This document shows, in pieces, positions 4,463-64,000 of a DNA stretch of 64,000 bases; position 1 is the first letter of the stretch, and every line of letters starts with the position of its first letter. The notes beneath the pieces are model-generated. The model saw only the letters and a program-made list of their open reading frames with translations, searched no databases and was not told where the DNA came from. The translations under genes and the position numbers were made by a program. Origin of the DNA: a virus (lineage: Duplodnaviria > Heunggongvirae > Uroviricota > Caudoviricetes); IMG/VR virus record IMGVR_UViG_3300037882_002341, positions 128,958 to 192,957 of that record; one strand, 5' to 3'.

Positions 4463-4665
4463 TATTTATCCTTGAGTGTAATTTCACTATCGGCGTCAAC
4501 TTCACAACCACATCTAGAACACTTGTGACTAACTAACTTATAGTAAAAGGACTCTTTACCATCTGTTTCTTCTGTGGTCTTAGATTCCTTGGTGTTATAA
4601 AGAGAACAAGCCTCTCTCAAGAACGCAACTGTTCTACTGAAGAAAGAAACTCTTTCTTGTGCCAT
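4462..4665 (-). CDS. small Cys-rich protein (possible zinc ribbon)
   Basis: 67 aa; C-terminal HKCSRCGC cluster. Confidence 0.3.
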   Translation of the reverse strand: MAQERVSFFSRTVAFLREACSLYNTKESKTTEETDGKESFYYKLVSHKCSRCGCEVDADSEITLKDK

Positions 4666-5444
4666 GGCACTTCTCCATATCTTGCGTATTTAATCTGACA
4701 AGACCGATCATAAGGACAAGTTCTACAGTTAGCCTTAATGGGCTGCGGAACATAAATACCGTGTCTCATGCCCTGTATGGCGGCACCAGCCAGGGTCTCA
4801 AATTCATACTTGTCCTCTGGACCAACAGAGTACTCCTCAATCTTACGAGACCAGGGGTCTACGTTAACAATAGATACCGGGGATGTCTTAAGACCTTCTG
4901 TTAGCTGTCTAAAAGATCCGTAAGCAAAGCCCTCTCTAATCCTTTCCCATGCAGATCTAGAAGAAGGGCGCTGGGATATTGTCACAACGCCAAAACGAAG
5001 CTCTTGTCTTGACTCCACACTAAAAGCAATGAAGCCATCTAAATCACCAACGACCACATCATCTCCAATGGGATAAGAACAAGACACAGGTCCTAAGATT
5101 GGTCTATCTACAAGATGATTTATCTTCTCGTGAAATCTTCTTATCATTACCAGACCAAAGTTAAGATGCACAGCCCAGTTAATATCACCAGAGAACAATC
5201 CCAATTGATCATATTCAACAAGAGTCTTCTTAAATACTTTTGTGGCTTTGTCCAGTGCCAAACTAGGGCTTGCTATCTTATTGGTACCTTGACTCAGGTA
5301 AGCTCGTATAGCATTCTTAGAAGCAATACAAATCGCTTCTCGCGCATCAACAACCTTCTCCTCTGCTCCCCACTTCTTATATCTGAGACGCAAAGGACAC
5401 TTACAATAAGTAATAATGTCTTCTAAATCAAATACATTAGACAT
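4617..5444 (-). CDS. PD-(D/E)XK nuclease with Fe-S cysteine cluster (Cas4/RecB-nuclease-like)
   Basis: N-terminal YCKCP plus C-terminal CRTCPYDRSC gives the C...CxxC...C arrangement of Cas4/AddB-type 4Fe-4S nucleases. 275 aa. Confidence 0.45.
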   Translation of the reverse strand: MSNVFDLEDIITYCKCPLRLRYKKWGAEEKVVDAREAICIASKNAIRAYLSQGTNKIASPSLALDKATKVFKKTLVEYDQLGLFSGDINWAVHLNFGLVMIRRFHEKINHLVDRPILGPVSCSYPIGDDVVVGDLDGFIAFSVESRQELRFGVVTISQRPSSRSAWERIREGFAYGSFRQLTEGLKTSPVSIVNVDPWSRKIEEYSVGPEDKYEFETLAGAAIQGMRHGIYVPQPIKANCRTCPYDRSCQIKYARYGEVPWHKKEFLSSVEQLRS

Positions 5445-18398: not shown

Positions 18399-19007
18399 TT
18401 ATGCAGTTTGCAAACTCTTAGGTTCCTGATCCTTTTCAATAGTGCGCTTAAAGCACATATTACTAGCACTATGAAAGACAACAACACCCTCTGGTTTCAT
18501 AAACCCAGGAGAGGCAGAGCTTCCTCTTTCCCGAAGTAAGGTAAGACAATCTTCAATATAGCCCATGTCAAATATACCACGATATAATACTGGAACAAGA
18601 TTACAACATGCAGGAGGATCACCATCTCCTGTTGCAGACCATCTAGTGGTATTAAAGAGACTCCATTTCTTCTCACCCTTCGGTAGCCCATACCCGCGCT
18701 GGATACCAGAGCCCCACCACTCACCGAAATGTCGTCCAGGACCAAGCTTAACAAGTTCCTCCGCATGGTCTTTGACCCATGTTGCAAACCCATGATTATC
18801 ATCACCAGGGACAATATACTTAGTGCGAGAGCCTGCGAGGATTGCATATCCATTTATATAAGCAACAGCAGGCACTGTTGGATCTGACAATAGTCTTGTA
18901 TCAATAATAAATACCTGCGCATTTGTTCCGTCGATCTTCTCGGTAACAATTATGTCGCGCTGTAAGCGTGCAATTTTTGGGAACTCCATAAAATCTTCGT
19001 CGGCCAT
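18399..19007 (-). CDS. ATP-dependent RNA ligase-like nucleotidyltransferase (Rnl2-type, minimal domain)
   Basis: Motif I EKIDGTN (KxDG lysine adenylylation site), motif III HFGEWWG, motif IV PEGVVVF and motif V K in FKRTIEK are all in the canonical order. Only 202 aa, so nucleotidyltransferase domain only. A DNA ligase fragment cannot be excluded. Confidence 0.5.
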   Translation of the reverse strand: MADEDFMEFPKIARLQRDIIVTEKIDGTNAQVFIIDTRLLSDPTVPAVAYINGYAILAGSRTKYIVPGDDNHGFATWVKDHAEELVKLGPGRHFGEWWGSGIQRGYGLPKGEKKWSLFNTTRWSATGDGDPPACCNLVPVLYRGIFDMGYIEDCLTLLRERGSSASPGFMKPEGVVVFHSASNMCFKRTIEKDQEPKSLQTA

Positions 19008-41839: not shown

Positions 41840-43411
41840 CTACTTACGAATACGTTCTTTTACAAAATTACTAGCTTTGAGCTCTACTCTAGGAGAAGTG
41901 GACTCGGGTACATTGGCCGGAACAGTAATACCTTGTTCAGGTTCACAAAGATCAGAGAAATCCTTAACCGTTTCTTCAACAACAGAACCCTTACCCATTA
42001 GACTTGCAACACCTGCTGTTCCAAGACTTCTACCACGAAGAGAGTTATTAGATGCATAACGAAGAGAATTTCCTGTACTTACTTTATAAGATTGTGCAGT
42101 AAGGTCAGAACCAACTTGTGCACAATTCTGAAGAGCATGAGAAGCAAGAGCAGAACCTCTTGCTTCTAAATTCTTCCAATTAACTTCGACAGCACCACAA
42201 TAGACTTTTGCACCAGCCCAGTCTTGCAGATCAGCTTTAACAGAAGCTTCTAGATAAGCTTTGGCTGTTGTCAAAATAGCTAATTGCTCTGCAACAGTTA
42301 AATCAGATTCTTTATCAGCATCCTCTGCCTTAACATAAGAGACTTTAACAACTTCTTCTGTTTTATTAACAACTGCATCAATAACATTAAACCATGACAC
42401 AGTTAGACTTACAACAGTTGAGGCTCTTGGCTTAGCAGTGGGTACAGCAGGTAAGCTAAGCTTGATTAGAATATGTTTAGTTTCACCAGCATAGATATCA
42501 TCTACAGTAATAACCGCATTACCGTTAAGATCCTCGACCTTAAAATCATTAAGAATCTCAGAGACCTTAACGTCCTTATTAGGCTTAATGGTTAACTTGA
42601 TATTCTGCGCAACACAAGAAATAGCACCACCAAGCTCTTCAGCAAAAGCATCTCTAACCTGGTCAGCACTCTCAATATAATGATAGTTCCCACCACCTGC
42701 TTTTGCCATATCGGCCAAAAGTTCTTGATCTGCTGCATTGCCAAAACCAAAAGTACTAACTACAGTATTACTAGGTTTGGCAGAACAAATCTTAAGAAGA
42801 CCGTCTCTACTAAATTCTCCATGATTAGCATGACCATCGGTCATCAGGAGAATTCTTGTGGAACCAACAAAATCAGGTTTAACCTGTTCATAACCACTTA
42901 AAATACCACTTGAAGTATTTGTCATACTTCCAGGACGTATTTGAGAGATAGCAGCAAGAGCTAGATGCTTATTCTTAGCGTCTGTATTAGCACAAACAGT
43001 ATTACTAATACTATCAAAAGCTATAACGCTGATCCGATCCCCATCGTGAAGATACTCAACTAGCTTGTTGGCAACTTCCCTCATTACATATAGCTTAGTT
43101 TTGAAGTCATATGGGAATTTTGTATTTGATACCGATACGCCACTAACACAAGGTTCTCCCATTGAGCCAGATACATCAAGAACAAGTACGATCTGAACCG
43201 GTACTCTCTTATTAGCCTCTAGGCTAGGAGCGGTAACAGAAACCATAAGATGGTTTTCTTTAGCGACTGTGCGATCTACCTTTGAGAACTCCATACGTGT
43301 ACGAAACTGCAGACTATCAGACATTTGTTTTTCCTTATTAGGGTCTGTGAAGTCTATTATCCTTTCTGGTGGGCTCCTCAAGCCCCTACATACAGGAAAC
43401 AAGTACTTCAA
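41840..43411 (-). CDS. VWA-domain protein
   Basis: 523 aa; MIDAS VLVLDVSGSMG, further DGHANHG and TFGFG segments. Confidence 0.55.
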   Translation of the reverse strand: MKYLFPVCRGLRSPPERIIDFTDPNKEKQMSDSLQFRTRMEFSKVDRTVAKENHLMVSVTAPSLEANKRVPVQIVLVLDVSGSMGEPCVSGVSVSNTKFPYDFKTKLYVMREVANKLVEYLHDGDRISVIAFDSISNTVCANTDAKNKHLALAAISQIRPGSMTNTSSGILSGYEQVKPDFVGSTRILLMTDGHANHGEFSRDGLLKICSAKPSNTVVSTFGFGNAADQELLADMAKAGGGNYHYIESADQVRDAFAEELGGAISCVAQNIKLTIKPNKDVKVSEILNDFKVEDLNGNAVITVDDIYAGETKHILIKLSLPAVPTAKPRASTVVSLTVSWFNVIDAVVNKTEEVVKVSYVKAEDADKESDLTVAEQLAILTTAKAYLEASVKADLQDWAGAKVYCGAVEVNWKNLEARGSALASHALQNCAQVGSDLTAQSYKVSTGNSLRYASNNSLRGRSLGTAGVASLMGKGSVVEETVKDFSDLCEPEQGITVPANVPESTSPRVELKASNFVKERIRK

Positions 43412-43597: not shown

Positions 43598-43660
43598 GAA
43601 ATAACATTCGTAAACTCTTTTAATAGATTTGTATCCCTAACTTATTCTGACATGGTCTTA

Positions 43661-43762
43661 TTTACATAAGCTTGCTCTACCACTGAGCTACAGGTCCGCA
43701 AAAAGATTTATACCAAGAAACCACTTTGAGGACCCGGGTGGATTTGAACCACCGACCAGCTT
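43661..43762 (-). tRNA. circularly permuted (split) tRNA-like gene with its 3' half upstream of its 5' half; candidate anticodon GUA
   Basis: The minus strand at 43762->43729 reads AAGCT-GGTC-GGTGG-TTCAAAT-CCACC-CGGGTCC-T, which is anticodon-stem 3' strand, variable loop, T-arm, acceptor 3' strand and discriminator. After a 31-nt linker, 43697->43661 reads GGACCTG-TA-GCTC-AGTGGTA-GAGC-A-AGCTT-ATGTAAA, which is acceptor 5' strand, D-arm, anticodon-stem 5' strand and a 7-nt loop. The acceptor strands pair 7/7 with one G-U, and the anticodon-stem strands pair 5/5, but only between the two pieces. Confidence 0.45.
43706..43715 (-). promoter_or_regulatory. extended -10-like element (TGGTATAAAT) inside the linker of the permuted tRNA
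   Basis: The minus strand reads TGGTATAAAT, with 9 nt (TCTTTTTGC) between the TATAAA hexamer and G1 of the tRNA 5' half. Confidence 0.3.
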
Positions 43763-43904
43763 TATAACCTGTCTTGTCTGGGAAACCTATTTTAGATTGT
43801 TTAGCCTCTGTGCGATAACCTAATTTTAAGGTTTTCGCCTTGCATTAAGCAAGGCTACAGCGTTTAACCTGAGTTTGAGACTAAACCTAGCTTCTCGAAG
43901 AAAA

Positions 43905-45986: not shown

Positions 45987-46018
45987 TGGTGGACCCGGGG
46001 GGTATCGAACCCCCGTCC
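45987..46018 (-). other. orphan tRNA 3'-end-like minihelix (GGAC / T-arm / CGG-GTCC-A-CCA)
   Basis: The minus strand reads GGAC-GGGGG-TTCGATA-CCCCC-CGGGTCC-A-CCA. It has a T-arm, an acceptor 3' strand and an encoded CCA. No canonical 5' half lies upstream; only a 4-nt GGAC can pair with GTCC. Confidence 0.4.
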
Positions 46019-46426
46019 TGAGTTCTTTCTAATTATCTTACTACACGTTTATCTACTTTTAAGTTGTAGCAAACTTGGGGTGTAGAACACCTCCACCAGG
46101 ATCTTTAATGTCATATCCAAGACATACTGCATTTAAGACATACCCACACTTGTATCCATGGTAGGGGTCACCACGTGTTCCCGAAGGAACAAGTCCAATT
46201 AGGCACAGAGAGCGAGCTTAGACGAGCGATAGTCGCTCATCTTGAACACAGGGGTGTTACCACCCCAGCTTGCAGCAAACTCACTGGCGGTCATCGGAGC
46301 CACATCCTTGATGTTGGCAGATAGTTTTCCCTATCATTTTTAACGTGGCCAAGATAGGATCCACGACGTGCAAGATAAATCGAACAGAACCAGTCGATTC
46401 CAGTCGGGCCCTTTATTTCAAAGAAG

Positions 46427-57385: not shown

Positions 57386-57608
57386 TTGTTATTCCTTGTA
57401 AAAATTTAATACTAAGAGAAATGATTATTCTCTTTATTATTCAATATTAATCTCACTAGATCTATTACTACAGCTATTAGAAATACAAATGGAAGTAAGA
57501 GTAGAAATTTCATAATTATCCTATTAGTTGTGAGCCCTACAAGTTTCTATTATCTGTTTTTAAGTGTGTTGTATCTATATTAAGTAGAGCCCACATCTAA
57601 GAGTATTA

Positions 57609-58117: not shown

Positions 58118-58564
58118 CTATCTCTGATATACAGAAGGTAACAACTTCTTTATTTCATTATCTATTCTGAGCAAGAAATCTTTAGGACCAGTTAACTTAA
58201 TAGCCGTATATGCACCTTGCATTCTTTCTTCCCACTTTAAATGTCCATTACTCCAAAAATGATCCCTTAAATACAATACTACCTTATTGTATTCATCTCC
58301 TTTTCTTAAGAAATAATCAAGGGTTATATTATCAACTAACACCTTTTCTATTTCTTCTCTTGCATCTCTTTTCTTCTGACTCTCTGCTAACATTGCAAGG
58401 GTCTTATCTTCAAAACCATTCTTCCAATCTATAGCAAACTTAGTTGCGAGGGCATGATGTTCTTCATCATCTATATATTTATCGCCTAATACAAGATCAC
58501 TTTCATTAGCACATAGTGCCACTAATCTTGTATTAATACGACGAAGTCTTATAGCCATATTCAC
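58118..58564 (-). CDS. hypothetical protein
   Basis: 148 aa. Confidence 0.4.
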   Translation of the reverse strand: MNMAIRLRRINTRLVALCANESDLVLGDKYIDDEEHHALATKFAIDWKNGFEDKTLAMLAESQKKRDAREEIEKVLVDNITLDYFLRKGDEYNKVVLYLRDHFWSNGHLKWEERMQGAYTAIKLTGPKDFLLRIDNEIKKLLPSVYQR

Positions 58565-59034
58565 CCCGTTACGATACTAACATTTCTAATAGTTCTATCT
58601 TTTGCATATTTCTTGATAAGCTTTTGTACGTATTTACGTACATCTCTCACACTAGTTCCATAATATCTTTCTTCTGGACCCGAATAAAACAATCTTCTGA
58701 TTTCATCAAGAGTTAGACCTAGCGTATTACAAGTATCAGGGCTTTTACTATAAGCTGCATCAAAAGGTAGATGGCGAAGTACGTGTCCTTTATTGAATCT
58801 TTCTCTAAACCATAGATCTACGCAAGCATGACCCGCAACACAAGCAATAGTTTTACACTTAGGTGATATATTGCTCTGTCCCGGATGATCAGCTAATAAT
58901 CTTGTGTGGCTCCTATATGTATCTCTAAGTATCTCAATGTCAAAAGCAAGCTTATCTCTTTCTACTTTTGCAAGAACTCTATCTATATTCTTTAGAAAAG
59001 ATAGAGTTGTAAACGAAAGCTTCTTTTTGGACAT
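58561..59034 (-). CDS. hypothetical protein, paralog family C
   Basis: 157 aa; C-x-T/I-x-AC-x-AG ... D-x-WF ... Y-x-G ... LF-x-GP ... KLI-K/R-KY-x-K pattern shared with 60248..60748. Confidence 0.4.
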   Translation of the reverse strand: MSKKKLSFTTLSFLKNIDRVLAKVERDKLAFDIEILRDTYRSHTRLLADHPGQSNISPKCKTIACVAGHACVDLWFRERFNKGHVLRHLPFDAAYSKSPDTCNTLGLTLDEIRRLFYSGPEERYYGTSVRDVRKYVQKLIKKYAKDRTIRNVSIVTG

Positions 59035-60247: not shown

Positions 60248-60748
60248 CTAATTCTTAATTTTCAAACCAGACTTTGTTTTATACTTTCTAATAAGTTTTC
60301 TAGCATATGAAACAATGTCTTTTGCGGTTACATCTTCTACATTATTACGAATGTCTGGACCATTAAGAAATAGTTGTTCAGTTTCGGCTTCACTAAGACC
60401 AAAGTATCTTTCAAGATTAGCATTTCCATACATTGCTAAAATTCCTGCCCTAGATCCATTTATCTTAATGAAACCCTTTTTAGATGTTTCTAGACCATTC
60501 TTCATAAACCAAGGATCTAATCCACACCATCCAGCAGTGCAGGCCTGAGTAGCACAGGACGGTAAATCTTTCTTTTCTAATTGACTAAAGGCACTTGCCA
60601 TATCATCAAATGACTTCCATCTTGAAAACCAAGAATTAATCTCAAAGGCAAGAGGAGGTTTCTTTGATACTTCAAGCATTACCCGAAGTAAATTCTCTAA
60701 TCGCTTTACACGAGTTATTCCAGAAATCTCTTTTATCTTTGTTTTCAT
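60248..60748 (-). CDS. hypothetical protein, paralog family C
   Basis: 166 aa; paralog of 58561..59034. Confidence 0.4.
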   Translation of the reverse strand: MKTKIKEISGITRVKRLENLLRVMLEVSKKPPLAFEINSWFSRWKSFDDMASAFSQLEKKDLPSCATQACTAGWCGLDPWFMKNGLETSKKGFIKINGSRAGILAMYGNANLERYFGLSEAETEQLFLNGPDIRNNVEDVTAKDIVSYARKLIRKYKTKSGLKIKN

Positions 60749-60784
60749 TACTCTCTCCCTTAAATAAACTCTATCTTAATAAGA

Positions 60785-60861
60785 TGGTAGGCTCGGTGAG
60801 ACTCGAACTCACTGTCACCCGATTATGAGTCGGACGCTTATACCACTTAAGCTTCGAGCCC
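60785..60861 (-). tRNA. tRNA-Met (anticodon CAU; elongator-type or Ile2-type), CCA encoded
   Basis: Cloverleaf: acceptor GGGCTCG/CGAGCCT, D-arm GCTT-AAGTGGTAT-AAGC, anticodon arm TCCGA-CTCATAA-TCGGG, variable TGACA, T-arm GTGAG-TTCGAGT-CTCAC, discriminator A and CCA. The anticodon stem lacks the three G-C pairs of initiator tRNA. Confidence 0.75.
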
Positions 60862-61387
60862 CTGATTCTATTTTAGGCGGGGCCTTTTAGACTCATGCCC
60901 AGGAGTAATGATTAATCGATCACTACTCTGTTGGATAGTTCATTAAGCTATTCAACAGGCTCCGAAGTTAGACTTTTAACAGTCACACTGTAGTCTTTCT
61001 TCTTCATCGTGACCGATAAACCTATAACGGATTTCAAATCCGCCCAGATCCCGGTTAGTCTAGCTCTTTCTTAGAGATACCAGTTATCCCGGTCTGTTAT
61101 AGGTCAAGCTCTGTGTTTCATAGGCTTGCCACCATCACAGGATCATGTGTCCTGTGGCCATATTAATAGACCGGTCCCGGAATCAGATCTTTACCTTATT
61201 AGGGTTACTTCCGGCCAGTCTAACTTAGGCACCAATTGATCCTAATCGATTTTCCTCGTGGTCCTAAGCTTGGTCTTGAAACTCCTGATTAGGGGTTTGC
61301 AAATTCCCTAAGGTAAATTTCAGGAGAAGACCTTCTGTTTCGCTCTTACCAAGAGCTCATCAGTGAGGAGTACCTCAGACAGATTTA
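60862..61387. other. ORF-free, stem-rich region (candidate structured ncRNA or cis element)
   Basis: About 525 bp without any ORF of 60 aa or more. Perfect 8-bp hairpin CCACAGGA-TCATGTG-TCCTGTGG at 61131-61153, nested hairpin AGACT-TTTA-ACAGT-CAC-ACTGT-AGTCT near 60968-60994, duplicated octamer ATCCCGGT at 61048 and 61084, and long-range CCGGAA/TTCCGG and TGGCC/GGCCA pairings. Confidence 0.35.
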
Positions 61388-61651
61388 TTAGAGCGATTTC
61401 AGGAAATCCCATAAACTCTTTATTAATGATTTCCTGATAGGTTTAGCAACCTTTCTCTTTTCAATTAGATAATTAGCTAGTTTCCACATAGCATTATCAT
61501 GTAGGTCTCTACCAACTCGAGTGCCTACTACATCTATCGGTGCATTAAAGTACCACTCATACCATCTTGCATAAGCTTCTGTAAATTCAATTGCAAGCTC
61601 ATCTAACTTATTATCGGATTTCATTAACATATTTTTCAGGAAGGAATCCAA
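61388..61651 (-). CDS. hypothetical protein
   Basis: 87 aa. Confidence 0.35.
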   Translation of the reverse strand: MDSFLKNMLMKSDNKLDELAIEFTEAYARWYEWYFNAPIDVVGTRVGRDLHDNAMWKLANYLIEKRKVAKPIRKSLIKSLWDFLKSL

Positions 61652-61994
61652 CTACGGCATTTTTAACTTTAGCAAAAGTAGATTTCTGGAGCTTAATATA
61701 GCTCTCTAGGAATAATGCTAGGTCTTCAACAAGTATCAATTTGCAGTGCAAGTTGCATTCAGAAATACATCTTGCATTTTCAATGGCGACACCAAGAGCA
61801 TCATCACAACAGTAGTGGAAAATTAGCCACTGTTTACTTTTAGGACAATAACAATATTGAAGGCTACTAGAAGAATTCCCATGTTTATAAACTACTTGGT
61901 GACTTAGTTTTATAGGTATATCATTAAAGCACCTTTCTACTTCTTTGATAAAGGTATCAATGATAGCAACTGCTTTACCAAGTTCATCTTCCAT
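61611..61994 (-). CDS. hypothetical Cys-rich protein
   Basis: 127 aa; LQYCYCPKSKQWLIFHYCCDD and CISECNLHC. Confidence 0.4.
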   Translation of the reverse strand: MEDELGKAVAIIDTFIKEVERCFNDIPIKLSHQVVYKHGNSSSSLQYCYCPKSKQWLIFHYCCDDALGVAIENARCISECNLHCKLILVEDLALFLESYIKLQKSTFAKVKNAVVGFLPEKYVNEIR

Positions 61995-63537: not shown

Positions 63538-63786
63538 TCACGATTGCTCTATGTTTTCCTCAGTCAGCGTTGGGCCCTTCTGCAGTTCTCGTATGATCTC
63601 TTGACGCCGGATATCGGGAAGAGCGACGAGAGCCTTATAGGCGGAGATCACCGATGCGATGGCGAGCCGCTCGGAGGTCGAGAGCGGGCGGTTGGCATAG
63701 CGGAGTGTGTGCTCTAGTTCATCGAGCCGCTCGCTAGGCACCGGCCAGACCTTCCCGCCGAAGCGTCGATAGAGCGGATTACACAC
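63538..63786 (-). CDS. hypothetical protein encoded mostly in the GC-rich terminal segment
   Basis: 82 aa; Arg/Ala/Leu-rich with high-GC codons; its C-terminus runs into AT-rich DNA. Confidence 0.3.
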   Translation of the reverse strand: MCNPLYRRFGGKVWPVPSERLDELEHTLRYANRPLSTSERLAIASVISAYKALVALPDIRRQEIIRELQKGPTLTEENIEQS

Positions 63787-63991
63787 CGGGCGCCTCCTCT
63801 CCCGCGACGAGGGCGGAGATGTCGTCGTCGGTTAGGACACTAGCGTGATAGAGCCTCACCGCCCGCGCCCCCTCCTCCCGCGCCGCGAGAATGGCGGCGG
63901 CCAGGATGCGGCGGAGGCAGGCGTCGCAGTCCCGGCGTTGGAAGGTTGGTCCACGGCAGACACAGTTGAAGTGATCGAGCGTCTCCGCCAC
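63779..63991 (-). CDS. hypothetical protein in the GC-rich segment (may be partial at the window edge)
   Basis: 70 aa; Ala/Arg-rich; CVCRGP ... DCDAC cysteines. Confidence 0.3.
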   Translation of the reverse strand: MAETLDHFNCVCRGPTFQRRDCDACLRRILAAAILAAREEGARAVRLYHASVLTDDDISALVAGEEAPGV

Positions 63992-64000
63992 GTCGTCGGC

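What the first reader, a model, noticed from the sequence alone, without database searches (positions are those of the whole stretch)
60862..61387. About 525-bp ORF-free, stem-rich region between tRNA-Met and the next gene
In a genome with almost no intergenic space, this stretch has no ORF of 60 aa or more on either strand. It is visibly less AT-rich than its surroundings and is packed with helices: a perfect 8-bp hairpin CCACAGGA-TCATGTG-TCCTGTGG (61131-61153), a nested 10-bp helix AGACT-TTTA-ACAGT-CAC-ACTGT-AGTCT (~60968-60994), a duplicated ATCCCGGT (61048 and 61084), and long-range CCGGAA/TTCCGG and TGGCC/GGCCA pairings (61155-61218). It starts right at the 5' end of tRNA-Met with CCCCTGATTCT. 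Candidates are a structured ncRNA (ribozyme, riboswitch-like leader or a phage sRNA), a replication origin, or a packaging (pac/cos) region.
Basis: seen in the sequence. Interest (0 to 1): 0.6.

Follow-up and report, generated by a model that had tools for sequence, protein, structure and literature searches.

The report
Two self-cleaving ribozymes before a phage tRNA
The gene-free stretch is a non-coding piece of a phage transcript that holds a hammerhead and a twister self-cleaving ribozyme, plus about 400 bases of orphan hairpins just ahead of a tRNA-Met gene; the ribozymes are known kinds, and the role of the rest is unknown.

Summary
60749-61387 is the largest ORF-free gap in the window, it is GC-richer than its flanks, and it folds far better than shuffled sequence. 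The structure reads on the minus strand, the strand of every gene here.

It is a composite:
- A complete type III hammerhead lies at 61385-61332 and should cut at 61378|61377, 10 nt after the upstream gene's stop codon.
- Three hairpins follow.
- A type-P1 twister lies at 61169-61103 and should cut at 61165|61164.
- A 241-nt multi-hairpin domain follows, then tRNA-Met.

Both ribozymes score below Rfam's thresholds. Both have close sequence relatives in unrelated phage contigs, and all stems and both twister pseudoknots are kept. Every ribozyme examined, here and in those relatives, sits just after a stable hairpin.

Most likely the two ribozymes cut a polycistronic transcript into hairpin-capped pieces. 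One piece is a 213-nt RNA. Another is a 303-nt leader that RNase P would separate from the tRNA.

The roughly 400 nt outside the ribozymes match no Rfam family. They are absent from six syntenic relatives of this jumbo phage, where the whole 5.4-kb island is missing. No evidence supports an origin or a packaging site.

The ribozymes are new members of known classes. The remainder is an unexplained orphan RNA.

The parts
61399..61437 (-). 10-bp perfect hairpin (UCAGGAAAUC ... GAUUUCCUGA) inside the 3' end of the upstream 87-aa ORF. It ends 21 nt before the hammerhead cleavage site and would be the 3'-terminal hairpin of the upstream mRNA after cleavage.
   Evidence: Inverted repeat I5. Local fold -14.1 kcal/mol, z = -2.8. 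Hammerheads in other phages are also directly preceded by a strong hairpin.
61332..61385 (-). Type III hammerhead ribozyme. Stem III is UCUGU/ACAGA. The cleavage triplet is GUC, with the predicted cut between 61378 and 61377. Stem I is UGAGG-UACU-CCUCA, the core is CUGAUGA, stem II is GCUCUU-GGU-AAGAGC, then GAAA.
   Evidence: Rfam RF00008: 45.0 bits (gathering score 48.5), E = 2.3e-8 locally and 1.4e-6 for the whole window, full model 1-54. Aligned with phage hammerheads from L070-L074, which share CUGUCUGAGG..CCUCACUGAUGAG..CGAAACAG. 100% of cells are paired in the three stems, and three pairs change on both sides.
61273..61331 (-). Hairpin A: an outer 5-bp and a 7-bp stem, an 8-nt bulge (AAUUUACC), and an inner stem UUAGGG/CCCUAA with an 11-nt loop that contains the palindrome UUUGCAAA. 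Function unknown.
   Evidence: Fold of 61270-61331: -18.8 kcal/mol, 75% of the ensemble, z = -2.9. No Rfam match.
61223..61269 (-). Hairpin B: GCUUAGG-CCA ... UGG-CCUAAG(U) with a 24-nt interior that contains AUCGAU and GAUC. Function unknown.
   Evidence: Fold -13.0 kcal/mol, z = -2.1. No Rfam match.
61168..61222 (-). Hairpin C: a 13-bp stem (AGACUGG-CCGGAA / UUCCGG-GA-CCGGUCU) with a 26-nt loop. It ends 2-3 nt before the twister cleavage site, so it would be the 3'-terminal hairpin of the 213-nt fragment. Its 3' arm CCGGUCU can instead pair with AGACCGG at 61089-61095, on the far side of the twister.
   Evidence: Folds (-19 kcal/mol, z about -2.2). Alternative pairing I4: 11 nt, 91% complementary. 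The four T1-variant twisters (L051, L058, L059, L060) are each preceded by a hairpin.
61103..61169 (-). Type-P1 twister ribozyme, with the predicted cut between U61165 and A61164. P2 is UAUG/CACA (one A.C mismatch). P3 is CACAGGA/UCCUGUG. P4 is AUG/UAU. The loop is GUGGCAAGCC. Pseudoknot T1 is GGC:GCU and T2 is GC:GC. P1 is degenerate.
   Evidence: Rfam RF03160: 26.9 bits (gathering score 67.2), E = 0.0028 and 0.0012. Four independent twisters with the same T1 variant were found by pattern search; L051 scores 45.8 bits, E = 2.8e-8. Alignment A1 has invariant UUAAU, GCC, GGUGGCAAGCC, AAA and CAGAGC. Pair counts: P2 3/4, P4 3/3, T1 3/3, T2 2/2 in the window sequence. The subgroup model R1 gives 57.8 bits, but the window sequence is in its training set.
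61021..61103 (-). Multi-branched element closed by CCUAUAAC/GUUAUAGG. It contains two near-identical small hairpins, ACCGG-GAUAA-CUGGU and CCGG-GAU-CUGG, plus CUCU-AAGAA-AGAG and CGGAUU-UGA-AAUCCG. The outline resembles a cloverleaf, but the loops are not tRNA loops. Function unknown.
   Evidence: Inverted repeat I3: 12 nt, 92% complementary. Fold -25.7 kcal/mol, z = -2.9. ARAGORN and Rfam tRNA models do not call it. The CCGGGAU duplication is shown.
60872..61020 (-). 3' hairpin array: UUUAUCG..CGAUGAA; GAAG-AGACU-ACAGU..ACUGU-AGUCU-CUUC; CUGUUG-AUAG..CUAU-CAACAG; the 10-bp GAGUAGUGAU..AUCAUUACUC; GGGC..GCCC. A 10-nt single-stranded leader then runs up to the tRNA. Function unknown.
   Evidence: Fold -45.7 kcal/mol, z = -4.94, 0 of 200 shuffles as good, and MFE equals centroid. 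The whole 241-nt 3' domain has z = -4.45. No Rfam match.
60785..60861 (-). tRNA-Met (anticodon CAU) with an encoded CCA. The next ORF starts 36 nt downstream.
   Evidence: ARAGORN. Rfam tRNA 58.1 bits.

Best explanation
The block is the non-coding middle of a minus-strand polycistronic phage transcript. The order is: 87-aa gene, hammerhead, three hairpins, twister, a 241-nt hairpin domain, tRNA-Met, 166-aa gene.

Two self-cleaving ribozymes of known classes cut it without any host nuclease. The type III hammerhead cuts 10 nt after the upstream stop codon (61378|61377). That leaves the upstream mRNA ending in a 10-bp hairpin and a 2',3'-cyclic phosphate. The type-P1 twister cuts at 61165|61164, 2-3 nt after the 13-bp hairpin C. 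This releases a 213-nt RNA made of the hammerhead body and hairpins A-C, with a 5'-OH and a cyclic-phosphate 3' end. The downstream piece starts with the twister body. RNase P would cut it at 60862|60861, giving a 303-nt leader RNA and pre-tRNA-Met.

Shown here: the sequence and structure identity of both ribozymes, their strand and predicted cut sites, and the hairpin-before-ribozyme arrangement in all eight cases folded, counting the two in the window.

Inferred: that both ribozymes are active, that the stretch is co-transcribed with its neighbours, and that the purpose is to make stable, hairpin-capped ends and free the tRNA precursor from the mRNA.

Unknown: what the roughly 400 nt of non-ribozyme hairpins do.
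For: Hammerhead:
- Full-length match to RF00008, E = 2.3e-8, with an intact CUGAUGA / GAAA / GUC core.
- Close relatives in unrelated phage contigs; 100% pairing in three stems, with compensatory changes.

Twister:
- RF03160 match at E about 1e-3.
- All invariant nucleotides are shared with four independent twisters of the same T1-variant subgroup.
- P2, P4, T1 and T2 are kept, with compensatory changes. A second L058 twister has T1 CGC:GCG and P2 UGUG/CACA, one base different from the window's.

Strand and context:
- All genes, both ribozymes and the tRNA are on the minus strand.
- tRNA-Arg in the same window follows directly after an ORF, so tRNAs here sit inside operons.

Hairpin before the ribozyme:
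- Six of six upstream flanks of relatives' ribozymes (four twisters, two hammerheads), and both flanks in the window, have a hairpin.

Literature:
- Bacterial and phage ribozymes cluster near one another.
- Clustered hammerheads cut polycistronic phage-related RNAs in vitro.
- Processing into transcripts of different stability has been proposed (PMC3088659, PMC6765202).
Against: - No transcription or cleavage data exist.
- Both ribozymes score below Rfam gathering thresholds (45.0 against 48.5; 26.9 against 67.2).
- The twister has an A.C mismatch in P2, a weak 3-bp P4 (AUG/UAU) and almost no P1 (1 of 4 pairs), so it may be slow or dead.
- Nearest-neighbour folding does not choose hammerhead stem III as the MFE.
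- The hammerhead's upstream hairpin ends 21 nt from the cut, further than in the other phages (2-12 nt).
- In other phages these ribozymes flank protein genes. The model does not explain why about 400 nt of well-folded non-coding RNA sits here.
- A hammerhead-to-twister pair at this spacing was not found in IMG/VR.
Confidence: 0.7

Rival explanations
1. The functional unit is one large (about 470-nt) ornate phage ncRNA linked to a tRNA, working like GOLLD or ROOL. The ribozymes only trim its ends or are built-in modules, and the biology lies in hairpins A-C and the 3' domain, for example as a scaffold, a decoy or a multimeric assembly.
For: Size, high structure (z = -5.95 overall; 3' domain z = -4.45 to -4.94) and raised GC. 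It is adjacent to, and on the same strand as, a phage tRNA, as described for GOLLD and ROOL (PMC5737381). The phage lineage is rich in RNA genes: tmRNA, Y-RNA-like, RNA ligase. Mutually exclusive helices surround the twister (I3, I4 and the base of hairpin C).
Against: No match to GOLLD, ROOL or any other large-RNA family, even at E <= 10 with relaxed filters. No homologue anywhere, so there is no covariation: blastn of GenBank phages, nhmmer/blastn of 74 loci, six syntenic relatives. The predicted fold is mostly a row of independent hairpins. Loop-loop complementarity is at chance level (P = 0.28).
Confidence: 0.2
2. It is a decaying remnant. A ribozyme-flanked cassette, of the kind seen around small ORFs in other phages, arrived with the accessory island and lost its coding content. 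The hairpins would then be leftovers or mere insulators, and the twister is partly degenerate.
For: In other phages, twisters lie 300-650 nt apart and flank roughly 100-aa ORFs. The window's twister has a mismatched P2, a weak P4 and no real P1. The whole 5.4-kb interval is missing in relative L061. The region's GC (0.44) is above the genome's (about 0.35), and the twister's closest relatives come from GC-richer contigs (0.53-0.61).
Against: Folding energy is far better than shuffled sequence in every sub-segment, which is not expected of a dead ORF. The hammerhead core is perfect. Every conserved twister nucleotide and both pseudoknots are intact. There is no trace of a disrupted reading frame: no AUG in the 213-nt interval and no ORF above 37 aa.
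Confidence: 0.12
3. It is a DNA-level element: a replication origin or a packaging (pac/cos) site.
For: It is ORF-free, has many inverted repeats, and both strands fold equally well.
Against: No direct-repeat iterons or tandem repeats. No AT-rich unwinding stretch; the region is GC-richer than its flanks. Cumulative GC skew keeps falling through it without a turn. Two strand-specific RNA catalytic motifs and a tRNA explain the sequence.
Confidence: 0.02
4. It contains small genuine protein genes missed by the 60-aa cutoff.
For: ORFs of 27-37 aa exist: 61126-61239 (+), 61145-61228 (+) and 60948-61037 (-).
Against: The longest two are on the plus strand of a genome whose genes are all on the minus strand. 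The minus-strand one starts with UUG inside a hairpin stem and has no Shine-Dalgarno sequence. The hammerhead-to-twister interval has no AUG. These ORFs overlap the ribozyme and hairpin structures.
Confidence: 0.02

Closest known systems
Type III hammerhead ribozymes of phages (Rfam RF00008; clustered hammerheads in prophage and phage operons, Perreault et al. 2011, PMC3088659)
   Same: Complete catalytic core, a three-stem junction with an open stem III, and a GUC cleavage site. It lies between genes of a phage operon. It is near-identical in stems I and III to hammerheads in five IMG/VR phage contigs.
   Different: It scores 3.5 bits below Rfam's gathering score. What follows is about 470 nt of non-coding RNA and a tRNA, not the next ORF. 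Its partner ribozyme is a twister, not another hammerhead.
Type-P1 twister ribozymes (Rfam RF03160; Roth et al. 2014), specifically the subgroup with loop GUGGCAAGCC and 3' strand GAGCY
   Same: All conserved nucleotides are present, along with P2, P3, P4 and both pseudoknots. The T1 variant GGC:GCY is shared with twisters in L051, L058, L059 and L060. It is directly preceded by a hairpin, as they are.
   Different: A.C mismatch in P2, an AU-rich 3-bp P4 and a degenerate P1. Its score is far below the gathering score. Its relatives sit between protein genes, often several per contig, with no tRNA nearby.
Ribozyme clusters in bacterial and phage genomes (Weinberg et al. 2015; reviewed in PMC6765202)
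   Same: Two different self-cleaving ribozyme classes lie within about 220 nt on the same strand in a phage gene context. The proposed role, processing of polycistronic transcripts, is the same.
   Different: The segment between the two ribozymes is non-coding and highly structured, and the unit ends in a tRNA. No hammerhead-twister pair at this spacing was found in IMG/VR.
GOLLD and ROOL large ornate RNAs (PMC5737381; PMC12286853)
   Same: Several hundred nucleotides of structured RNA lie next to a tRNA gene in a phage, possibly co-transcribed with it.
   Different: No sequence or structure match to either Rfam model. No homologues, so there is no evidence for a conserved complex fold. The prediction is mostly serial hairpins. 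GOLLD and ROOL are not described as carrying self-cleaving ribozymes (my own knowledge).
HDV-like theta ribozymes next to phage tRNAs (PMC10879173)
   Same: Self-cleaving ribozymes physically linked to phage tRNA genes and thought to take part in maturing the tRNA transcript.
   Different: The ribozyme classes differ (hammerhead and twister, not HDV-like). Here they lie 240-520 nt upstream, not adjacent to the tRNA. That paper mentions neither hammerhead nor twister.
Phage T4 stable RNAs 'species 1 and 2' (rnaC, rnaD), co-transcribed with the T4 tRNA cluster (recalled from memory, not checked here)
   Same: Stable non-coding RNAs of unknown function encoded beside phage tRNAs and released by processing of a shared precursor.
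   Different: The T4 RNAs are released by host RNases, not by ribozymes. No sequence relationship was tested.

Membership tests
Hammerhead ribozyme, type III (RF00008) | Conserved catalytic core: CUGAUGA, GAAA, and an NUH (here GUC) cleavage triplet | tested here: met
   All core positions are identical to the consensus in the cmscan alignment. They are invariant in alignment A2.
Hammerhead ribozyme, type III (RF00008) | Three helices around the core, with stems I and II closed by loops and stem III open | tested here: met
   Stem I 5 bp, stem II 6 bp, stem III 5 bp. 100% of cells are paired across 4 sequences, and 3 pairs change on both sides.
Hammerhead ribozyme, type III (RF00008) | Score at or above Rfam's curated gathering threshold | tested here: not met
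   45.0 bits against 48.5. The E-value is still 2.3e-8 locally and 1.4e-6 for the window. The loss comes from the two outer stem III positions.
Hammerhead ribozyme, type III (RF00008) | Site-specific self-cleavage giving a 2',3'-cyclic phosphate and a 5'-OH | not testable with these tools
   Needs in vitro transcription or end-mapping.
Twister ribozyme, type P1 (RF03160) | Conserved nucleotides: U-AA at the cleavage site, GCC after P2, loop G-U-N-N-C-A-A-G-C-C, AAA, and GAG before the T1 strand | tested here: met
   All are present. UUAAU, GCC, GGUGGCAAGCC, AAA and CAGAGC are invariant among the window sequence and four other twisters.
Twister ribozyme, type P1 (RF03160) | Double pseudoknot: T1 (loop with the 3' internal-loop strand) and T2 (loop GC with the GC after P2) | tested here: met
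   T1 is GGC:GCU (G.U, G-C, C-G) and T2 is GC:GC, so 3/3 and 2/2 pairs. T1 covaries across the family: CCC:GGG in the consensus, GGC:GCC in four relatives, CGC:GCG in the second L058 twister.
Twister ribozyme, type P1 (RF03160) | Stems P2 and P4 (P3 optional) | tested here: met
   P2 has 3 of 4 pairs (one A.C, one compensatory C-G to U-A). P4 has 3 of 3 (A-U, U-A, G.U). P3 is a perfect 7-bp stem.
Twister ribozyme, type P1 (RF03160) | Stem P1 closing the motif next to the cleavage site | tested here: not met
   Only 1 of 4 pairs in the model's register. GGUC/GACC, or the 11-nt helix I4, could substitute with bulges. From memory, P1 has been reported as dispensable for twister activity; I did not check this.
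Twister ribozyme, type P1 (RF03160) | Score at or above Rfam's gathering threshold | tested here: not met
   26.9 bits against 67.2 (E = 0.0012-0.0028). The clear-cut twister in L051 also fails, at 45.8 bits, because the model penalises the T1 variant.
Twister ribozyme, type P1 (RF03160) | Self-cleavage between U and A | not testable with these tools
   Needs experiment.
GOLLD (RF01998) / ROOL (RF03087) large ornate RNAs | Match to the family covariance model (conserved multistem junctions and pseudoknots) | tested here: not met
   No hit at E <= 10 in searches of 1.1 kb and 0.48 kb with relaxed filters.
GOLLD (RF01998) / ROOL (RF03087) large ornate RNAs | Located next to tRNA genes in phages or prophages | tested here: met
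   Directly upstream of tRNA-Met in a phage-like genome. This is context only and is not sufficient for membership.
Replication origin / pac site | Iterons or terminase-site repeats, an AT-rich unwinding element, a strand-skew switch | tested here: not met
   No tandem or multi-copy direct repeats. The region is GC-richer than its flanks and the skew is monotonic.

The most novel reading that the evidence does not exclude
The two ribozymes are there to excise a defined 213-nt structured RNA (61377-61165) carrying a 5'-OH and a 2',3'-cyclic phosphate. These are the ends an RtcB-type ligase joins. With end-healing, the phage's own RNA ligase (18399-19007) could join them too. The RNA would then accumulate as a stable, possibly circular, phage ncRNA. 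Separately, the 241-nt domain fused to tRNA-Met would be the first member of a new class of tRNA-linked ornate phage RNA, comparable to ROOL and GOLLD. The evidence does not exclude this, because nothing is known about the roughly 400 nt of well-folded non-ribozyme sequence.
Probability: 0.1. Interest if true: 0.75.

Novelty: new member of a known kind. Interest (0 to 1): 0.45.

Why it matters
What self-cleaving ribozymes do in bacteria and phages is still largely unknown (PMC6765202). This locus is a compact test case. Two different ribozyme classes lie on one transcript, each just after a stable hairpin. Together they bracket a non-coding RNA instead of a gene, and a tRNA follows. The same hairpin-before-ribozyme arrangement appeared in all six upstream flanks folded from unrelated phages (four twisters, two hammerheads). 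That suggests a general role in making hairpin-capped, cyclic-phosphate 3' ends without stopping transcription, which is easy to test.

There is also a practical point. Both ribozymes, and the clear twister in L051, fall below Rfam gathering scores. Standard annotation therefore misses this subgroup. The twister T1 variant GGC:GCY could be added to the family model.

Tried and rejected
Homologues of the whole region
- blastn 'distant' against 50,697 GenBank phages matched only the tRNA. At E <= 10 there were only chance-level 26-34-nt hits.
- One of those hits is a 26-nt hairpin match in Gamaleyavirus phages, E = 0.1, on the strand opposite their genes. I judged it chance.

Flanking proteins as anchors
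- The 166-aa, 87-aa and RNAP-beta-like proteins have no relatives in IMG/VR or in GenBank phages.
- The 166-aa protein and the deaminase match only themselves among 5.8e9 proteins.
- The source contig is not on record for context look-ups. It was not returned by the metagenome scan or by the IMG/VR scans that use a pattern the window matches.

Phage relatives
- Relatives were finally reached through the RNAP beta'-like protein. Six syntenic loci were read.
- None has a hammerhead, a twister or any similarity to the RNA.

Other tests
- A hammerhead-twister pair at fixed spacing in IMG/VR gave 47 hits, none with a twister 3' half.
- Paralogues inside the window: none.
- Other ribozyme classes, RNase P RNA, Y RNA, GOLLD and ROOL: no Rfam hit. 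By eye, the RNase P CR-I/CR-V resemblance does not give a P4 helix.
- tRNA-like reading of 61021-61103: the outline resembles a cloverleaf, but the loops are wrong and ARAGORN/Rfam do not call it.
- Tertiary loop-loop pairing among hairpins A-C: one 6-bp match, P = 0.28 against shuffled loops.
- A shared promoter motif upstream of the window's ncRNA genes: none seen. The GCTGTGAAG motif of relative L061 is not enriched in the window.
- tRNA-Met neighbours in Vibrio phage D239 and a Manatee Spring phage are ordinary tRNA regions.
Full report
CHECK OF THE OBSERVATION

The window is an AT-rich (about 35% GC) phage-like genome. Every convincing gene is on the minus strand. Its genes include multisubunit-RNAP-like proteins, NAMPT, PRPP synthase, DnaE, RecA and an RNA ligase. 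The source contig is 192,957 bp.

Positions 60749-61387 form the longest stretch in the window with no ORF of 60 aa or more on either strand. The next two such gaps hold the tmRNA and a Y-RNA-like element. GC is 0.41-0.46 in the stretch and 0.33-0.40 beside it.

The 526 nt fold to -171 kcal/mol with z = -5.95 on the minus strand (z = -5.75 on the plus strand). None of 100 shuffles did as well. Sliding 200-nt windows stay at z of -2.2 to -4.3 across the whole block.

WHAT IS THERE

tRNA-Met (60861-60785) is on the minus strand. The block is therefore the tRNA's upstream region.

A relaxed Rfam scan of 60600-61700 gave two ribozyme matches on that strand:
- Hammerhead type III at 61385-61332: 45.0 bits, E = 2.3e-8, gathering score 48.5.
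- Twister type P1 at 61169-61103: 26.9 bits, E = 0.0028, gathering score 67.2.

Nothing else matched in two relaxed scans.

HAMMERHEAD

The sequence is UCUGUC|UGAGG-UACU-CCUCA-CUGAUGA-GCUCUU-GGU-AAGAGC-GAAA-CAGA. It has every core nucleotide and all three stems. It begins 3 nt after the UAA stop of the upstream 87-aa ORF, which is followed by a second in-frame UAA. It should cut after C61378.

A pattern taken from it retrieved type III hammerheads in five IMG/VR contigs of unrelated phages. These share CUGUCUGAGG..CCUCACUGAUGAG..CGAAACAG. In the four-sequence alignment all 14 stem pairs are paired in every sequence, and three pairs change on both sides. I regard the hammerhead as established at the sequence level.

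TWISTER

The low Rfam score has an identifiable cause. The loop reads GUGGCAAGCC instead of GUCCCAAGCC, and the 3' strand reads GAGCU instead of GAGGG. These are the two strands of pseudoknot T1, which a covariance model cannot pair. GGC:GCU still forms three pairs.

A pattern requiring this variant found one clear twister in IMG/VR (L051, duplicated as L056). It has perfect P2, P3 and P4 and scores 45.8 bits, E = 2.8e-8, also below the gathering score. The same approach found three more in metagenomes (L058, L059, L060).

Aligned with these, the window sequence shares every invariant block: UUAAU, GCC, GGUGGCAAGCC, AAA and CAGAGC. Pair counting gave 88.8% of cells paired overall. The window sequence keeps:
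- P2 3/4, with one A.C and one compensatory C-G to U-A change;
- P4 3/3;
- T1 3/3;
- T2 2/2.

Only P1 is poor, at 1/4. A second twister in L058 has T1 CGC:GCG and P2 UGUG/CACA, one base away from the window's UAUG/CACA.

The motif is therefore a genuine twister relative. Whether it still cleaves well is uncertain, given the weak P1, P2 and P4. The predicted cut is U61165|A61164.

THE REST

Between the hammerhead and the twister lie three irregular hairpins, A, B and C (61331-61168). After the twister comes a multi-branched element closed by CCUAUAAC/GUUAUAGG, which holds two near-identical ACCGG..CUGG hairpins. Then comes a 149-nt array of hairpins with z = -4.94.

These roughly 400 nt have no Rfam match, no paralogue in the window and no detectable homologue in GenBank phages.

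Relatives of the phage were found through the RNAP beta'-like protein, at 37-64% identity. Six loci were read. They are syntenic, sharing some or all of RNAP beta' and beta, PRPP synthase, NAMPT, tRNA-Arg, tmRNA and Y-RNA-like RNA with Ro60. None has a hammerhead, a twister or any similarity to this RNA. In L061, the NADAR gene and the homologue of the window's 146-aa gene are about 830 nt apart. In the window they are about 5.4 kb apart, and the RNA, tRNA-Met and roughly ten small genes lie in that extra DNA. The locus therefore sits in a lineage-specific accessory island.

HOW IT MOST LIKELY WORKS

tRNAs in this genome lie inside operons; tRNA-Arg starts 7 nt after the NAMPT stop codon. The block is probably co-transcribed with its neighbours, and self-cleavage would then give three pieces:
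1. The upstream mRNA, ending ...hairpin(61437-61399)...UCUGUC>p.
2. A 213-nt RNA, HO-[hammerhead body, A, B, C]-AUU>p. It folds with z = -3.67.
3. An RNA starting with the twister body. RNase P would cut it at the tRNA 5' end, giving a 303-nt leader and the pre-tRNA.

A regularity supports a role in end formation. All six upstream flanks of relatives' ribozymes that I folded (four twisters, two hammerheads) have a stable hairpin that ends 2-12 nt before the cut. The window has the same feature for both ribozymes: hairpin C ends 2-3 nt before the twister cut, and a 10-bp hairpin ends 21 nt before the hammerhead cut. Cleavage would leave each upstream RNA with a terminal hairpin and a cyclic phosphate, and transcription would not stop. 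This fits published ideas that such ribozymes process polycistronic phage RNAs into species of different stability.

These steps are inferred, not shown. There are no expression or cleavage data.

RIVALS

- The block could be one large tRNA-linked ncRNA in the manner of GOLLD or ROOL. Against this, it matches neither model, it has no homologues, the predicted fold is mostly serial hairpins, and loop-loop complementarity is at chance.
- It could be a decayed ribozyme-flanked cassette, since other phages use such ribozymes around roughly 100-aa ORFs. Against this, every sub-segment folds much better than shuffled sequence, and the catalytic cores are intact.
- An origin or pac site, or hidden small genes, are not supported.

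NOVELTY AND VERDICT

The two ribozymes are new members of known classes. Both fall below Rfam thresholds and belong to recognisable phage subgroups. The composite arrangement (hammerhead, structured RNA, twister, structured RNA, tRNA) was not seen elsewhere in my searches. It is a single instance.

The function of the non-ribozyme RNA remains unexplained. The most novel reading still open is an excised, possibly ligated or circular, 213-nt RNA together with a new tRNA-linked large RNA.

Overall interest is moderate. Most of what can be proven fits known ribozyme biology.

Noticed in passing
window 45987-46411 (-): The phage encodes a full-length tmRNA (Rfam 113 bits, E = 2e-43), followed by a terminator-like hairpin. 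Relatives L061, L066 and L068 also carry one.
   Followed up: partly
window 43643-43781 (-), next to 41840-43411 (-): A Y-RNA-like (YrlA) match (39 bits, E = 4.8e-5, below the gathering score) lies beside a 523-aa VWA-domain protein. In relatives L061, L065 and L069 a TROVE/Ro60 protein is present, with a YrlA-like hit just upstream in L061 and L065; L068 has a YrlA-like hit but no TROVE call. The window probably encodes a Ro60/Y-RNA pair.
   Followed up: partly
window 63540-64000: GC jumps abruptly from about 0.35-0.43 to 0.55-0.69. The minus-strand ORFs there (63538-63786, 63779-63991) are GC-rich and have no Pfam match. This could be foreign DNA or an assembly chimera.
   Followed up: partly
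window 60248-60748 (-) and 58561-59034 (-): The 166-aa protein just downstream of tRNA-Met has a paralogue 1.2 kb further on (28% identity, E = 2e-11; shared C..AC.AG and LF..GP motifs). Neither matches a Pfam family, and a homologue search for the 166-aa protein (the only one of the two searched) returned only itself.
   Followed up: partly
window 18399-19007 (-): An RNA ligase (PF09414, E = 9e-13) is encoded in the window. Relatives carry RNA ligases of two families, and one relative (L066) also carries EF-Tu and PTH2. This is an RNA- and translation-centred accessory gene set.
   Followed up: no
L066 4598-5130: In a related phage, a tRNA with anticodon CAU (5' half GGGCCGGUAGCUCAGG..UUGACUCAU, 3' half ..GGUUCGAUUCCUACCCGGCCUACCA) appears split by about 450 nt. 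The insert carries an opposite-strand ORF (4608-4940) that I did not scan against Pfam, and a tRNA-Ile(UAU). It could be an intron or a homing-endonuclease insertion.
   Followed up: no
L061 5200-6790: A related phage has about 1.5 kb without called genes between tRNA-Ile and Ro60. The motif GCTGTGAAG occurs four times there, each before a tRNA-like or YrlA-like fragment. It may be a promoter or processing signal. It is not enriched in the window.
   Followed up: partly
L058 710-775 and 38-104; L059 814-910 and 448-522; L051 5779-5875 and 6193-6267: Phage contigs with the T1-variant twister carry further twister or twister-like matches 300-650 nt away on the same strand, flanking small ORFs. 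In L058 and L059 these matches are strong (E = 9e-13 and 4.5e-6). In L051 the extra matches are weak (E = 0.002-0.008). All score below Rfam's twister gathering score or were found only with a subgroup model.
   Followed up: partly
window 57386-57608 (-): An ORF-poor gap contains a 12-bp long-range stem (GUGGGCUCUAC/GUAGGGCUCAC) and a possible 33-aa hydrophobic peptide gene (MKFLLLLPFVFLIAVVIDLV...). A 200-nt window here scored z = -5.8, but the exact gap scored only -1.7.
   Followed up: partly
window 60929-60954 (-) and E. coli Gamaleyavirus phages (e.g. PQ362703.1 42718-42743): A 26-nt hairpin (UGAAUAGCUUAAUGAACUAUCC) is 25/26 identical to a sequence in an unannotated region of about 2 kb, which also holds tRNA genes, in N4-like Gamaleyavirus phages. 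There it lies on the strand opposite the tRNAs. With E = 0.1 against 2.3 Gb it is probably chance.
   Followed up: partly
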